Positions 3,162-7,813 of a DNA stretch of 64,000 bases are shown here, in pieces. The DNA is from a virus. The stretch lies in the IMG/VR virus record IMGVR_UViG_3300028874_000010, positions 1-64,000 of that record. The stretch is one strand, 5' to 3'. The notes beneath the pieces were generated by a model, which saw only the letters and a list, made by a program, of their open reading frames with translations, made no database searches and was not told where the DNA came from. Each line of letters begins with the position of its first letter. Position 1 is the stretch's first letter. The position numbers were made by a program, and so were the translations under genes.

Positions 3162-3863
3162 ATGAAAGCTCTTCCATACGTTTACAAATTAGTACATAAA
3201 GAAACAGGCGAATTCTACATAGGTTTTAGATGTGCAAACAAAGTACCAGCAAATGAGGATTTGGGAATTAAATATTTTACTTCTTCAAAATTGGTTAAGA
3301 AAACATTTGAAAATTTTGAATGTTTTGTTTTAGGAGAATTTGAAGATAAAGATGCCGCATATACTTTTGAACAAAATCTTATCAAGGAGTGTTTTTCTAA
3401 TCCATTAATCCTAAACAAACATTGGCAAGATACTAAAACATATTCTATGCTAGGATTTAAGAGGCCAGATCTTGGAAAATTAAATTCTGAAATAAAAAGA
3501 AAACCAAAAGAATATAGAAATTATGATTGTGCTCAATGTGCTACGCCTTTGTCAAAATTAGAATTTATTCATCATAAGCCAAAGGAGCATTATTATTGCA
3601 ATGCTAAATGCCGAAATGAATTTAATAGAGGCCCATCAAAAAAAGGAATTAAGCTTCCGCATTTGTGGGGTAGGGCAGCTTGGAATAAAGGTTTGACTAA
3701 TCCAACTGCAGCAGAAAACGCAAGGAGAGGCGCAGAAAAACAACGCGAATTGGTAACCGGAAGAAAGAGACATTATATTTCAGAGACCGAATGGACCTGG
3801 AAATGTCAAGACAAAGATGGATGGTACATACGCCAAAACGGGGAACAAGTCCCCGTTTTGTGA
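3162..3863 (+). CDS. free-standing GIY-YIG homing endonuclease (Seg-like)
   Basis: PYVY...FYIG, YFTSS, conserved E and LN; C-terminal Cys cluster and AWNKG NUMOD-type motif; opposite strand to neighbours. Confidence 0.85.
   Translation: MKALPYVYKLVHKETGEFYIGFRCANKVPANEDLGIKYFTSSKLVKKTFENFECFVLGEFEDKDAAYTFEQNLIKECFSNPLILNKHWQDTKTYSMLGFKRPDLGKLNSEIKRKPKEYRNYDCAQCATPLSKLEFIHHKPKEHYYCNAKCRNEFNRGPSKKGIKLPHLWGRAAWNKGLTNPTAAENARRGAEKQRELVTGRKRHYISETEWTWKCQDKDGWYIRQNGEQVPVL
3834..3860 (-). terminator. intrinsic terminator downstream of tmRNA, overlapping the 3' end of the GIY-YIG ORF
   Basis: CAAAACGGGG-N7-CCCCGTTTTG, perfect 10-bp inverted repeat. Confidence 0.65.
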
Positions 3864-4210
3864 TCATTCTGTTTCTTGGCTGATCAGCCTCATGGGGATC
3901 ATGCCGCTAGGCGAGTCTCACCAAAGTAAGCATCATTTGCATTTGCTTTGTTTGCTTCATTTACGTCGATCGCCTGACGTGTTGTCTGCATCAATACTAA
4001 TCACCCAATCAAAACCTTGGCGAGCCCATCAGAAGAACCCAAACTCATATCGGTCGTTAGCTTGGTTTATTGCAATACCCGATCCATCTTAGCAAGACTT
4101 ACGTTATTGCACCAGTGAATATTCTAGAAATACTCACCTTAGGTTCTTCTGGTGGACTCGATGGGACTCGAACCCATGTCTTGAGCACCTTTCTATCAGC
4201 TTCATACAAC
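3861..4210 (-). ncRNA. ssrA: tmRNA, circularly permuted (two-piece) gene: acceptor piece ~4210-4150, intervening segment 4149-4028, coding piece 4027-~3861
   Basis: GAC-ATGGG-TTCGAGT-CCCAT-CGAGTCC-ACCA ends at 4150. GGGCTCG starting at 4027 pairs with it, including G3.U70. Tag frame 3940-3899 reads ANDAYFGETRLAA*. Confidence 0.92.
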
Positions 4211-4305
4211 AATAATAATGTTGACAGATTCTAATCGCGTATCTGTCTTGATTCACAAAGATATCGCGATTTAAGCTCTTTGTGAATCGCACTGCCAACA
4301 AATGA

Positions 4306-5816: not shown

Positions 5817-5871
5817 GTTTCTGTGTATCCTATGGTATCATTTAACGATATTTATATCGGATAGCAGAAAC

Positions 5872-5904
5872 AAAAAAGGCTCCTAAGTTTTCTTAGGAGC
5901 CTTT
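5872..5904 (-). terminator. intrinsic terminator
   Basis: AAAGGCTCCTAAG-aaaa-CTTAGGAGCCTTTTTT. Confidence 0.85.
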
Positions 5905-5911
5905 ACAATTA

Positions 5912-6130
5912 GTGAGGAGGATAATCTTCATTAAAGAAGAGTCATTTAAACGAAAGTTCACATAAACAACTAAACATCTGAACAAAATGATATAAGAGCG
6001 GGACAGTTCAACATGCTTTGGCTAGCATAAACAATGCCTGATTCGTTAAGCGCTCTGACAAAATCATCCAGTTATTTTTAGGAAGTCGAATTAAATGTGC
6101 TTATCTAAAAATCCAACTATCTTCCTCGAT
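5912..6130 (-). ncRNA. candidate structured ncRNA 3' of the helical protein gene
   Basis: Closing helix 6127-6116/5925-5914 (11/12 bp); internal helices TTTTTAG/CTAAAAA, AGAGCG/CGCTCT, ATGCT/AGCAT, TCTTC/GAAGA; followed by terminator. Confidence 0.55.
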
Positions 6131-6135
6131 AAACT

Positions 6136-6726
6136 TTATACTACTATATTCAATGTTTCTAAGTATACAAGATCATCATCGGCAACTTCAATAACCGAAG
6201 TTGAATTTATCACTGATGATTCATCCGCAATACGAAGAAGTTCTTTCTTCAAAAGCTTTTGTTCACCTTTCAAGAGATCTAAAGATCTCTTTGTCAGAAT
6301 AAAATGAACAGAAACTTGATCAGTAAGGCGACCATATGCGTCAGTCGATGTTTTATCTGACGTAACAATTGATGCATGTTTCTTTCGCGCAATTTCGTAT
6401 TCGGCGTCAGTAAATTCAGGCCCAATCGCATTTTCCAATATAGTCAGCTCAGCACGAACTTGGACTTCACGATTCATTAATTGATTTAGCCCAGATTCTT
6501 GATGCAATCCTTGGATAGCTAAACGAATCGCATACCGAATTTTATTTAACTTTTTAATCTCTAGAACAGCATCCAAAATCTTTTGTTGATGAAGATGAAC
6601 ACTCTGTTCAAATCCTTCGTACATAGAAATTGCTACATTTCGTGTATTAAGGTTGCCAGTAACAATACTGACTTGGGTTTCGATTTCGCGTTCCAACCGG
6701 CGAGCTTGACGTAGAGAAAGTTTCAT
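6136..6726 (-). CDS. alpha-helical/coiled-coil hypothetical protein (possibly DIP1984/DUF6847-like)
   Basis: MKLSLRQARRLE start, heptad-rich, C-terminal INSTSVIEV; family assignment is from recall only. Confidence 0.6.
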   Translation of the reverse strand: MKLSLRQARRLEREIETQVSIVTGNLNTRNVAISMYEGFEQSVHLHQQKILDAVLEIKKLNKIRYAIRLAIQGLHQESGLNQLMNREVQVRAELTILENAIGPEFTDAEYEIARKKHASIVTSDKTSTDAYGRLTDQVSVHFILTKRSLDLLKGEQKLLKKELLRIADESSVINSTSVIEVADDDLVYLETLNIVV

Positions 6727-6825
6727 TTCAGTGTTTACCTTTTATTATAATTTTGGGCATGTGCATCTTGGAGAGAGGCATTATATCACCAATAGAATAA
6801 ATGTGTAATGCTATTGGTGATATTT

Positions 6826-7339: not shown

Positions 7340-7813
7340 TCACTCTAGAACCCAGAGGGTTTTTTCAATATCTGGCCCAAGAGCATAATCAATAATTTGA
7401 CTCACTACAGACCAATCCCCATTTGCTAATCCACAACCAATAAGTGGAAAGTGAACTCCTAACTGTTTGACTTTATCTTTTAGAACCCCAGTCGCCAACC
7501 CAATGAAAGCTCGTTCTAATGCATCATAATCAACATAGACGACATTAGGATCGCGCCCATAGTCACGCTGTGTGATGGCATTGATGATGTATTTGTCTTG
7601 GCTGACCTGAGCCCATGTGTACGTTCCTAGGCGATCTGCACATCCTGCGTCGATTGGCTTTTCAAAGTCATGTCGGTATGCCGCAAAAGCTTTGGGAAAT
7701 TGTGTTTTGACCTGTTTAGCAAAACCACTACCCATAACGCCATGCGCATTACATCCATGTACAATAACCCCAGATGTAATATCCAGAAGATTCCCAACAA
7801 TTTTAGTTATCAT
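7340..7813 (-). CDS. macrodomain protein (Appr-1''-p/ADP-ribose hydrolase, T4 Tk.4-like)
   Basis: GNLL...IVHGCNAHGVMGSGFA, FPLIGCGLANGDW. Confidence 0.9.
   Translation of the reverse strand: MITKIVGNLLDITSGVIVHGCNAHGVMGSGFAKQVKTQFPKAFAAYRHDFEKPIDAGCADRLGTYTWAQVSQDKYIINAITQRDYGRDPNVVYVDYDALERAFIGLATGVLKDKVKQLGVHFPLIGCGLANGDWSVVSQIIDYALGPDIEKTLWVLE

What the first reader, a model, noticed from the sequence alone, without database searches (positions are those of the whole stretch)
5912..6726. Candidate protein-ncRNA pair: helical protein gene followed by a ~220-nt closed RNA with UGUU repeats
Seen: the stretch between the stop of 6136-6726 and the terminator at 5872-5904 has no credible ORF in an otherwise packed genome. 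Its ends pair (GAGGAAGATAGT/ATTATCCTCCTC, 11/12). It encloses helices TTTTTAG/CTAAAAA, ATGAT/ATCAT, AGAGCG/CGCTCT, ATGCT/AGCAT and TCTTC/GAAGA. It also carries short spaced repeats (TTGTTTATG twice, ATGTTGA, TTGTTCAG, ATGTTTAG). Inference: a co-transcribed RNA with repeated binding sites for an oligomeric coiled-coil protein (reminiscent of DIP1984/DUF6847-like proteins), i.e. an uncharacterised ribonucleoprotein or type III TA-like system.
Basis: partly seen in the sequence, partly recalled or inferred. Interest (0 to 1): 0.75.

Follow-up and report, generated by a model that had tools for sequence, protein, structure and literature searches.

The report
Phage protein with partner structured RNA
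A small helical phage protein gene is always followed by a folded, non-coding RNA carrying evenly spaced UUG motifs, a pairing conserved across very different large phages (Cronobacter GAP32, Caulobacter CcrColossus, Vibrio Vp_R1 and others) and not described in any RNA or protein family database searched here.

Summary
What makes it significant is the comparison with other phages, not this window alone. The window is a fragment of a jumbo phage. Gene 6726-6136 (minus strand, 196 aa) is followed by 231 nt without a credible ORF, then a strong terminator (5904-5875). Taken alone, the fold is not significant (z -1.3 to -1.7).

The protein belongs to a family of about 80 clusters. In all seven divergent phage lineages where I could reach the DNA, its gene is directly followed by a 213-353 nt stretch with no gene on the sense strand; in the fENko-Kae01/SE_PL subgroup the unannotated stretch is longer (477-587 nt) and holds further conserved sequence. 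Flanking protein genes are not shared between the lineages compared.

These RNAs share one plan:
- a terminal closing helix;
- internal hairpins;
- in six of seven lineages, a strictly phased array of NUG/UUG triplets just before the 3' arm (4-5 x 8 nt, or 5-6 x 7 nt).

Covariation is strong in three lineages. The sense strand always folds better than the antisense. No Rfam, Pfam, NCBIfam or PADLOC family matches.

The protein models confidently as a helical fold. Its only full-length PDB match is DIP1984 (3KDQ), and it is predicted to form a homodimer.

Best reading: a new, widespread phage protein-RNA module, probably a ribonucleoprotein. Binding is inferred, not shown. The type III toxin-antitoxin features are not met.

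The parts
6780..6809 (-). Promoter-like site (-35 ATTACA/TACACA, extended -10 TG-TATAAT) upstream of the protein gene
   Evidence: Consensus scan, 10/12 matches. It overlaps a 13-bp inverted repeat (6783-6795 / 6811-6823). Function not tested.
6136..6726 (-). Gene for the 196-aa helical protein, the founding member here of a phage family of about 80 clusters at 50% identity
   Evidence: ORF. 81 representatives at E<=1e-3, nearly all 173-217 aa and full length. AF2 pLDDT 94.8. Weak match to phrog_25230. Single copy in the record.
5905..6135 (-). 231-nt non-coding stretch; the structured RNA proper runs from 6127 to 5914
   Evidence: No credible ORF. Fold. A positional equivalent of 213-353 nt follows the gene in every homologous locus; in the fENko-Kae01/SE_PL/Munch loci the unannotated stretch is 477-587 nt.
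6116..6127 (-). P1 closing helix, 5' arm (GAGGAAGAUAGU)
   Evidence: Pairs with 5925-5914; pair probability 0.8-0.95 for 8 of 12 pairs. An equivalent closing helix covaries in other lineages.
5914..5925 (-). P1 closing helix, 3' arm (AUUAUCCUCCUC)
6045..6052 (-). CGCUUAAC motif
   Evidence: Occurs once in the whole 64-kb window on both strands. The same 8-mer sits in the first hairpin loop of the enterobacterial-phage RNAs (pEa_SNUABM_47, XbC2, fENko-Kae01). Noted after the fact, so it carries low weight.
5987..6067 (-). Internal domain: P3 AUGAU (6067-6063) / AUCAU (5991-5987); P4 AGAGCG (6056-6051) / CGCUCU (6000-5995); hairpin AUGCU (6028-6024) / AGCAU (6017-6013)
   Evidence: Present in the MFE and centroid folds. 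A nested P3/P4 domain holding small hairpins is also the plan of the alphaproteobacterial-phage RNAs. Homology between the helices is inferred, not shown.
5955..5986 (-). Phased array of four 8-nt units, each with UG at the same position (UUUGUUCA GAUGUUUA GUUGUUUA UGUGAACU)
   Evidence: longest UG chain of 4 at period 8 (19/500 shuffles). The same position in the RNA holds 5 x 8 nt in GAP32-like phages, 4 x 8 nt in Vp_R1 and 5-6 x 7 nt in Colossus/Brevundimonas phages.
5925..5940 (-). Small hairpin UCUUC-UUUAAU-GAAGA just inside the 3' arm of P1
5875..5904 (-). Intrinsic terminator: 13-bp stem, 4-nt loop, T-run
   Evidence: With it included, the fold z-score is -3.2.

Best explanation
The locus is a two-part phage module.

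1. A 196-aa all-helical protein with a DIP1984-like fold, predicted to form a symmetric homodimer.
2. A structured non-coding RNA of about 215 nt encoded immediately after the protein's stop codon on the same strand. A terminal helix closes the RNA, it contains internal hairpins, and just before the 3' arm of the closing helix it carries a phased array of NUG/UUG triplets spaced exactly 8 nt apart. In this window a strong terminator ends it.

Most likely mechanism (inferred): the RNA is made from the protein's own transcript as a long 3' tail, or from the promoter-like site at 6191-6162. It folds so that the closing helix presents the repeat array. The array then acts as a multi-site platform on which copies of the dimeric protein bind, one triplet per subunit or binding surface. 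This is the principle known from TRAP (phased GAG/UAG) and HutP (phased UAG).

The resulting ribonucleoprotein would act in trans during infection. The module sits in or near tRNA/tmRNA gene clusters in four lineages, which hints at a role connected with RNA or translation, but the target is unknown.

Shown: conservation of the pair, the RNA structure with covariation, strand polarity, and the phased repeats.
Inferred: co-transcription, protein-RNA binding, and any downstream function.

Confidence, by part: about 0.9 that this is a conserved structured RNA genetically coupled to the protein family; about 0.45 that the protein binds the phased array. The overall figure given is a blend of the two.
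For: Conserved pairing. The protein family has 81 representatives. In every locus I could fetch, the gene is directly followed by a stretch of at least 213 nt with no gene on the sense strand. These are:
- a 375-kb metagenome contig;
- Brevundimonas phages Domovoi, Kabachok, Bambus, Gurke and Kikimora, and Caulobacter phages CcrPW and CcrColossus;
- Vibrio phages Vp_R1 and SJSY21;
- Erwinia pEa_SNUABM_47, Xanthomonas XbC2, Pectobacterium CBB, Yersinia fHe-Yen9-04, Erwinia Kaldavass, Cronobacter GAP32, Klebsiella fENko-Kae01, and Salmonella SE_PL and Munch.

Neighbouring proteins are not conserved between the lineages compared.

In fENko-Kae01 and SE_PL the blastn match covers the gap and the gene's 3' end but not the first ~450 nt of the gene.

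RNA structure.
- MFE z-scores are -3.0 to -5.9 in six other RNAs, and the sense strand always folds better than the antisense.
- Enterobacterial group: 94% of cells paired against 37-46% when partners are slid; 16 pairs change on both sides against 1-4; the closing helix is 100% paired with 7 of 12 pairs covarying.
- Alphaproteobacterial group: the core is 97% paired, 12 of 19 pairs covary, slid controls give 31-48%. A model built on one sublineage finds the others at the predicted coordinates.
- Vibrio pair: 3 compensatory double changes and no disruptive ones.

Phased UG/UUG arrays at the same relative position.

The UGU-rich segment is in the top 0.01-1.2% of its locus in each of the seven RNAs tested.

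Protein.
- AF2 pLDDT 94.8.
- 3KDQ is the only full-length PDB match: Foldseek E 0.04, prob 1.0; VIA Z 9.2 over 144 residues at rmsd 7.1.
- Homodimer ipSAE 0.59 against a best control of 0.00; the three runs share at least 96% of contacts and partner pLDDT is at least 86. That mark was reached by 20 of 30 proteins solved as pairs and 1 of 23 solved as single chains.
- The homolog ENKO_435 was detected by LC-MS/MS (PMC11218385).
Against: - No experiment or RNA-seq shows that the RNA exists as a discrete species or that the protein binds it.
- The protein is mildly acidic overall (pI about 6). Only its N-terminal 30 residues are basic, which is not the profile of a classic RNA-binding protein.
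- For this window alone the fold is not significant (z -1.3 to -1.7). The thermodynamic model pairs the repeat array with an A-rich 5' strand (P(unpaired) 0.29), so single-strandedness of the array here is an assumption borrowed from other lineages.
- Neither the covariance model of the alphaproteobacterial core nor an nhmmer profile of the enterobacterial RNA detects the window's RNA. Its membership in the same RNA class therefore rests on position, architecture and the phased array, not on alignable sequence.
- One lineage (L003) has UGU-rich sequence but no strictly phased array.
- Covariation alignments contain few independent lineages, and the A9 alignment was fitted to the model.
Confidence: 0.55

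Rival explanations
1. The element is a structured RNA that works without the adjacent protein. It could be a 3'-UTR-derived or independently transcribed small RNA whose U/G-rich array binds a host factor (an Hfq-, ProQ- or CspA-type binder of U-rich RNA), or it could base-pair with CA-rich targets. The gene linkage would then reflect only shared transcription.
For: The RNA structure, strand polarity and terminator are shown. The protein is not basic. In the window, a terminator hairpin with a U-tail after a U-rich segment resembles Hfq-dependent sRNA anatomy (established knowledge). An internal promoter-like site at 6191-6162 could drive the RNA alone.
Against: Strict linkage to one protein family is kept across seven lineages, even where protein identity has fallen to about 21-35% and no other neighbouring protein is shared in the lineages compared. 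A free-standing sRNA should sometimes be found apart from the gene. In the alphaproteobacterial phages no terminator follows the element.
Confidence: 0.17
2. The element acts in cis on the mRNA. It could be a processing or stability structure (an RNase III or RNase E site, or a 3'-end protector), an autoregulatory site for the protein's own message, or a leader for the downstream genes.
For: It lies in the 3' UTR. The long coaxial closing stems look like RNase III substrates (inference from known T7 and lambda sites). In the alphaproteobacterial phages the next gene's ribosome-binding site follows within about 25 nt.
Against: The element is far more elaborate than known processing sites: six to eight covarying helices plus a phased repeat array. 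Downstream genes differ in every lineage. In this window a terminator and a TATAAATA late-promoter-like box separate the element from the next gene, and in the GAP32-like phages a tRNA follows.
Confidence: 0.13
3. The phased 7-8-bp repeats are DNA iterons, that is an operator, centromere-like site or origin bound by the dimeric protein. Precedents are the 7-bp heptad arrays of the omega repressor and the 8-bp-phased tetramer boxes bound by ParG.
For: The period and copy number (4-6 units of 7-8 bp) match known arrays bound by DNA-binding dimers (established knowledge, recalled from memory). The protein is predicted to be a dimer.
Against: The sense strand folds better than the antisense in all seven RNAs tested, by 5-26 kcal/mol. 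Compensatory changes preserve pairing in helices that surround the array and include G.U pairs. There are UUCG/UACG tetraloop hairpins. The fold search found no ribbon-helix-helix or helix-turn-helix match covering the protein.
Confidence: 0.07
4. A type III-like toxin-antitoxin pair: the protein is toxic and the repeat RNA neutralises it.
For: A protein gene is paired with a repeat-bearing RNA, and a terminator lies within the unit.
Against: The protein is all-helical and not ToxN/AbiQ-like. It has no PADLOC match. The repeats are 7-8 nt rather than 34-45 nt tandem units. The gene order is reversed. The carriers are lytic jumbo phages, and the protein was detected in lysates of fENko-Kae01.
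Confidence: 0.05
5. Nothing functional: a spacer or decayed gene whose pairings and repeats are chance.
For: For the window alone the fold z-score is not significant.
Against: Positional conservation in every family locus reached, covariation in three lineages, and phased arrays that beat shuffles at 0-3/500 in most lineages.
Confidence: 0.02

Closest known systems
DIP1984 (PDB 3KDQ) / Pfam DUF6847 (PF20935) helical proteins
   Same: 3KDQ is the only PDB entry whose match covers the whole model: Foldseek E 0.04, prob 1.0; VIA Z 9.2 with 144 of 152 residues aligned at rmsd 7.1. An ESM-Atlas feature neighbour cluster carries DUF6847 on 19% of its members. Both families are of unknown function.
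   Different: No HMM match to any Pfam or NCBIfam model at E<=1 for any of 39 members. The protein is about 45 residues longer. The Z-score is in the range that helical bundles reach by chance. No RNA partner is known for DIP1984.
TRAP and HutP: oligomeric proteins that read phased triplet repeats in RNA
   Same: An array of short, invariant triplets (UUG/NUG here; GAG/UAG for TRAP, UAG for HutP) at a fixed short spacing with variable spacers. This is the pattern of one binding pocket per subunit (established knowledge).
   Different: TRAP and HutP are beta-rich ring oligomers that act on leader RNAs to control attenuation. Here the protein is a helical dimer, the array lies inside a closed multi-helix RNA downstream of the gene, and binding is untested.
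Type III toxin-antitoxin systems (ToxIN, CptIN, TenpIN)
   Same: A protein gene linked to a repeat-containing non-coding RNA, with a terminator in the unit.
   Different: The antitoxin RNAs are 34-45-nt tandem repeats upstream of a ToxN-fold endoribonuclease. None of these features is met here.
CsrB/RsmZ-type sponge RNAs and 6S / Y RNAs (protein-sequestering structured RNAs)
   Same: A structured RNA of about 200 nt with closed ends and multiple copies of a short motif. It could titrate or scaffold a protein.
   Different: No Rfam match to any of these. The motifs lie in a phased single-stranded tract, not in hairpin loops. The Ro60/TROVE gene is 93 kb away in CcrColossus and absent from the window record and Vp_R1.

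Membership tests
Type III toxin-antitoxin | Toxin is a ToxN/AbiQ-type endoribonuclease fold | tested here: not met
   The model is all-helical. The top fold matches are helical bundles and 3KDQ. No PADLOC model matches.
Type III toxin-antitoxin | Antitoxin RNA is a tandem array of 34-45-nt repeats encoded upstream of the toxin | tested here: not met
   The repeats are 7-8-nt units in 4-6 copies, inside a closed structure downstream of the gene.
DIP1984 / DUF6847 (PF20935) | Match to the family HMM above its threshold | tested here: not met
   No Pfam or NCBIfam hit of this family for the query or for any of 39 members at E<=1.
DIP1984 / DUF6847 (PF20935) | Same fold as 3KDQ over the full length | tested here: inconclusive
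   Foldseek E 0.04, prob 1.0, TM 0.44/0.54. VIA Z 9.2, 144 aligned, rmsd 7.1. It is the only full-length match, but within the chance range for helical proteins.
Any Rfam RNA family (6S, Y RNA/YrlA, tmRNA, tRNA-like, group I intron, known phage RNAs) | Covariance-model match at or near the gathering score | tested here: not met
   Window at gathering and at E<=10. Homologous loci at E<=1. Only tRNAs and terminator-driven noise were found.
New phage RNA class defined here (closed RNA with phased UUG array downstream of the family gene) | Lies directly 3' of a family gene on the same strand, with no ORF | tested here: met
   the same holds in all other loci.
New phage RNA class defined here (closed RNA with phased UUG array downstream of the family gene) | Terminal closing helix enclosing internal hairpins | tested here: met
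   P1 6127-6116 / 5925-5914, probability 0.8-0.95 for 8 of 12 pairs. Covariation could not be tested for this lineage because no close relatives were reachable.
New phage RNA class defined here (closed RNA with phased UUG array downstream of the family gene) | Phased NUG/UUG array (period 7 or 8) just 5' of the closing helix's 3' arm | tested here: met
   4 x 8 nt at 5986-5955; 19/500 shuffles reach it.
New phage RNA class defined here (closed RNA with phased UUG array downstream of the family gene) | Detectable sequence or covariance-model homology to the RNAs of other lineages | tested here: not met
   Covariance model R2 (alphaproteobacterial core) and the nhmmer profile (enterobacterial RNA) do not hit the window element. 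Only the CGCUUAAC 8-mer is shared.

The most novel reading that the evidence does not exclude
A previously unrecognised ribonucleoprotein is widespread in large phages: the GAP32/CBB/BF-like jumbo myophages, the Colossus-like and Brevundimonas jumbo siphophages, the Vp_R1-like Vibrio phages and many uncultured ones. In it, copies of a DIP1984-like helical dimer load onto a phased UUG array displayed by a closed, multi-helix RNA encoded in the gene's own 3' tail. This would be a new protein-RNA recognition mode. Given the tRNA/tmRNA neighbourhood, it might act on host or phage RNA metabolism or translation.
Probability: 0.45. Interest if true: 0.85.

Novelty: categorically new. Interest (0 to 1): 0.82.

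Why it matters
Jumbo phages carry hundreds of genes of unknown function and almost no characterised non-coding RNAs. This work identifies a concrete two-component module, one protein family plus one RNA class. It is conserved from Caulobacter to Cronobacter, Xanthomonas and Vibrio phages.

- It is present in cultured, tractable phages (GAP32, CBB, CcrColossus, fHe-Yen9-04, Vp_R1).
- It is unannotated in the GenBank records inspected.
- It is absent from Rfam and Pfam.

The phased UUG array gives a directly testable binding hypothesis. The result would also give a first functional handle on the DIP1984/DUF6847-like fold.

At the least, several spurious small antisense ORFs annotated inside the element in public genomes should be replaced by an ncRNA feature.

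Tried and rejected
Searches that found nothing or were unavailable:
- The word-indexed protein search found only the query itself. The exhaustive HMMER search was needed.
- IMG/VR, metagenome and GTDB scans with protein patterns gave a single extra locus.
- tblastn of the window protein against GenBank phages found nothing, even at E=10. Cultured homologs were reached only through other family members and through a BFVD fold hit.
- The scan's earlier notes hold nothing on this protein elsewhere.

Readings rejected:
- Y RNA was rejected because the TROVE gene is far away or absent.
- A small ORF in the gap was rejected. The frames are short, are not conserved between the window and L003, and the invariant triplets recur at 7- or 8-nt periods, which are not multiples of 3.

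Technical failures:
- MAFFT plus RNAalifold misaligned helices P2-P4 of the alphaproteobacterial group. This was solved with covariance-model-guided alignment.

Literature:
- Searches found no description of this element or family. DUF6847 and DIP1984 had zero occurrences.
- The catalogue of 10,006 viral structured-RNA candidates does not mention these phages in its text. It could still contain the motif unnamed.
Full report
**What the window is.** The 64-kb window is part of a 112-kb IMG/VR viral record estimated to be 32% complete, which implies a jumbo phage of about 350 kb. It is 31-44% G+C, and almost all its genes are on the minus strand. It carries a permuted tmRNA at 3808-4242 and a tRNA-Ser.

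**The observation.** On the minus strand, a promoter-like site (6809-6780) precedes a 196-aa ORF (6726-6136). After its stop codon come 231 nt with no credible ORF. Then comes a strong intrinsic terminator (5904-5875) and a TATAAATA box (5856-5849) ahead of the next gene.

- The closing helix GAGGAAGAUAGU / AUUAUCCUCCUC (6127-6116 / 5925-5914) is in the MFE fold, with pair probabilities of 0.8-0.95 for 8 of its 12 pairs.
- The UGUU-type repeats are strictly phased: four 8-nt units with UG at the same position (5986-5955).

On its own the region is only marginally unusual.
- MFE z is -1.3 to -1.7.
- An end helix this good appears in 3/300 shuffles.
- A phased array this long appears in 19/500 shuffles.
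- The UGU density is in the top 0.18% of the window.
- No Rfam family matches.

**The protein.** It has no Pfam, NCBIfam or PADLOC match and only a weak match to phrog_25230. An exhaustive HMMER search found 81 cluster representatives, almost all 173-217 aa and aligned end to end (alignment A1).

- AlphaFold2 with that alignment gives a confident all-helical model (pLDDT 94.8).
- The only PDB entry matching over the whole length is 3KDQ, the DIP1984 protein of unknown function: Foldseek E 0.04, prob 1.0; VIA Z 9.2 with 144 residues aligned at rmsd 7.1. That Z-score is within the range helical proteins reach by chance.
- An ESM-Atlas neighbour cluster carries DUF6847 on 19% of its members.
- A homodimer is predicted: ipSAE 0.59 against a best control of 0.00. 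The three runs share at least 96% of contacts and partner pLDDT is at least 86. That mark was reached by 20 of 30 proteins solved as pairs and 1 of 23 solved as single chains.
- The protein is mildly acidic (pI about 6) with a basic N-terminal 30 residues, which include the nearly invariant A-R-R motif.
- The Klebsiella phage homolog ENKO_435 was detected by LC-MS/MS of a concentrated lysate, so the family is expressed (PMC11218385).

**The decisive comparison.** I could reach the DNA of family members in seven divergent lineages. In every one, the gene is followed on the same strand by a long stretch with no sense-strand gene, while other neighbours are tightly packed.

| Lineage | Length of the stretch after the gene |
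|---|---|
| This window | 231 nt |
| 375-kb metagenome contig (L003) | 234 nt |
| Brevundimonas phages Domovoi, Kabachok, Bambus | 311-314 nt |
| Brevundimonas phages Gurke, Kikimora | 286 nt |
| Caulobacter phages CcrPW, CcrColossus (after gp272) | 292 and 284 nt |
| Vibrio phages Vp_R1, SJSY21 (112 kb) | 215 and 213 nt |
| Enterobacterial/Xanthomonas jumbo myophages (pEa_SNUABM_47, BF, XbC2, CBB, fHe-Yen9-04, Kaldavass, GAP32 after gp372) | 299-353 nt, then a tRNA-Thr |
| fENko-Kae01, SE_PL, Munch (same group) | 477-587 nt unannotated; the element fills about the first 260 nt |

- Flanking proteins are not homologous between the lineages compared. The only conserved partner of the gene is this stretch.
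- In fENko-Kae01 and SE_PL the blastn match to pEa_SNUABM_47 covers the gap and the gene's 3' end but not the first ~450 nt of the gene.
- In four lineages the module sits among or near tRNA or tmRNA genes.

**It is an RNA structure.** MFE z-scores of six other RNAs are -3.0 to -5.9, and the sense strand always folds better than the antisense.

Enterobacterial group (8 sequences):
- 94% of pair cells are standard pairs, against 37-46% when partners are slid.
- 16 pairs change on both sides, against 1-4 in the slid controls.
- The 12-bp closing helix is 100% paired, with 7 covarying pairs.

Alphaproteobacterial group:
- I identified helices P0, P1, P2, P2a and P3-P6 by hand and verified them.
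- A covariance model built on the Domovoi-type core found the Gurke-type core (E 1e-12). After one iteration it found the Colossus-type core (E about 1e-3), each at exactly the predicted coordinates.
- On that alignment 97% of cells pair. Twelve of 19 pairs covary, including all six pairs of P3, which take three different Watson-Crick types. Slid controls give 31-48%.
- The 15-bp closing helix covaries as well.

Vibrio pair: Vp_R1 and SJSY21 differ at 25 positions. The six that fall in paired columns form three compensatory double changes, and none is disruptive.

**The phased array.** Just upstream of the 3' arm of the closing helix, six of the seven lineages carry a run of short units with an invariant UG or UUG at a fixed period.

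| Lineage | Array | Shuffles reaching it |
|---|---|---|
| Enterobacterial group | 5 x 8 nt, e.g. AUUGUAUG GUUGCAUG AUUGCAUU GUUGAACG GUUGCUUC | 0-3/500 |
| This window | 4 x 8 nt | 19/500 |
| Vp_R1, SJSY21 | 4 x 8 nt | 14-34/500 |
| Colossus, Gurke, Domovoi types | 5-6 x 7 nt | 0-1/500 |
| L003 | U/G-rich, not strictly phased | not significant |

- RNAalifold leaves the array unpaired in the enterobacterial and alphaproteobacterial consensus folds.
- In the window, the thermodynamic model instead pairs it with an A-rich 5' strand.
- Periods of 7 and 8 nt exclude coding.

**What it is not.**
- It is not any Rfam family, in the window or in the homologous loci.
- It is not the Y RNA known from CcrColossus. 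The Ro60/TROVE gene is 93 kb away there and absent from Vp_R1 and from this record.
- It is not a type III toxin-antitoxin system. The protein fold, the repeat size and the gene order all fail.
- Sequence and model searches do not connect the window RNA to the other lineages' RNAs. That is unsurprising at 21-29% protein identity to those two groups. The only shared string is CGCUUAAC, which is unique in the 64 kb and also present in the first hairpin loop of several enterobacterial-phage RNAs.

**Interpretation.** A conserved gene-RNA pair with a phased triplet array is most simply explained as a ribonucleoprotein, in which copies of the dimeric protein bind the array. TRAP and HutP read phased triplets in the same way. 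This is an inference; no tool here could test protein-RNA binding.

The rivals are:
- an RNA acting without the protein;
- a cis-acting processing or stability element;
- DNA iterons;
- a toxin-antitoxin pair.

The iteron idea is disfavoured by strand asymmetry and by the covarying helices that bracket the array. The cis idea is disfavoured by the complexity of the element and by the non-conserved downstream genes.

**Novelty.** I found no description in the literature searched. In the GenBank records I inspected the region is unannotated, apart from small antisense ORFs inside it in Kaldavass, SE_PL and Munch.

**Limits.**
- There is no expression data.
- Each covariation set contains few independent lineages.

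Noticed in passing
window 3808-4242 (-): Permuted (two-piece) tmRNA gene about 1.7 kb downstream of the element. ARAGORN gives the tag peptide ...ANDAYFGETRLAA, and Rfam tmRNA_permuted scores 108 bits.
   Followed up: partly
window 5849-5856 (-): A TATAAATA box (T4-late-promoter-like) lies between the terminator and the next gene (5816-5322). This suggests that gene is transcribed separately from the element.
   Followed up: no
window 6783-6795 / 6811-6823: Perfect 13-bp inverted repeat (ATATCACCAATAG / CTATTGGTGATAT) with a 15-nt loop, between the upstream gene's stop (6826) and the family gene's start. It overlaps the promoter-like -35/-10. It could be a terminator for the upstream gene or an operator.
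   Followed up: no
window 6162-6191 (-): Promoter-like site (TTGAAG, 18-nt spacer, TATACT) inside the 3' end of the protein gene. It could give an independent transcript of the RNA element.
   Followed up: no
L021 1095-1304 (Klebsiella phage fENko-Kae01); same region in L022 and L023: After the element and its hairpin, a further 210 nt of unannotated sequence, nearly identical between Klebsiella and Salmonella jumbo phages, precedes a tRNA (annotated tRNA-Gly in SE_PL and Munch; found only by Rfam in fENko-Kae01). It may be a second non-coding RNA.
   Followed up: no
L019 993-1082 (-); L022 and L023 1093-1245 (-): Small antisense 'hypothetical protein' CDSs are annotated in GenBank in the unannotated stretch after the family gene: inside the RNA element in Kaldavass, just downstream of it in SE_PL and Munch. 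They are probably spurious calls.
   Followed up: no
L011 1336-1991 and 3523-3599; L015 632-703, 3377-3448, 4000-4118; L003 262-337, 1439-1516: In Vp_R1, pEa_SNUABM_47 and the 375-kb contig, the module is embedded in or adjacent to tRNA genes. In the GAP32-like phages a tRNA-Thr follows directly after the element's 3' hairpin.
   Followed up: partly
window 7340-7813 (-): Macro-domain protein (Pfam Macro E 9e-8; phrog_335 'phosphatase' E 7.5e-44), two genes upstream of the module.
   Followed up: no
BFVD hits: Weaker structural matches of the protein to uncharacterised proteins of giant eukaryotic viruses: Catovirus CTV1 (E 4e-4) and Yasminevirus (E 3e-3).
   Followed up: no
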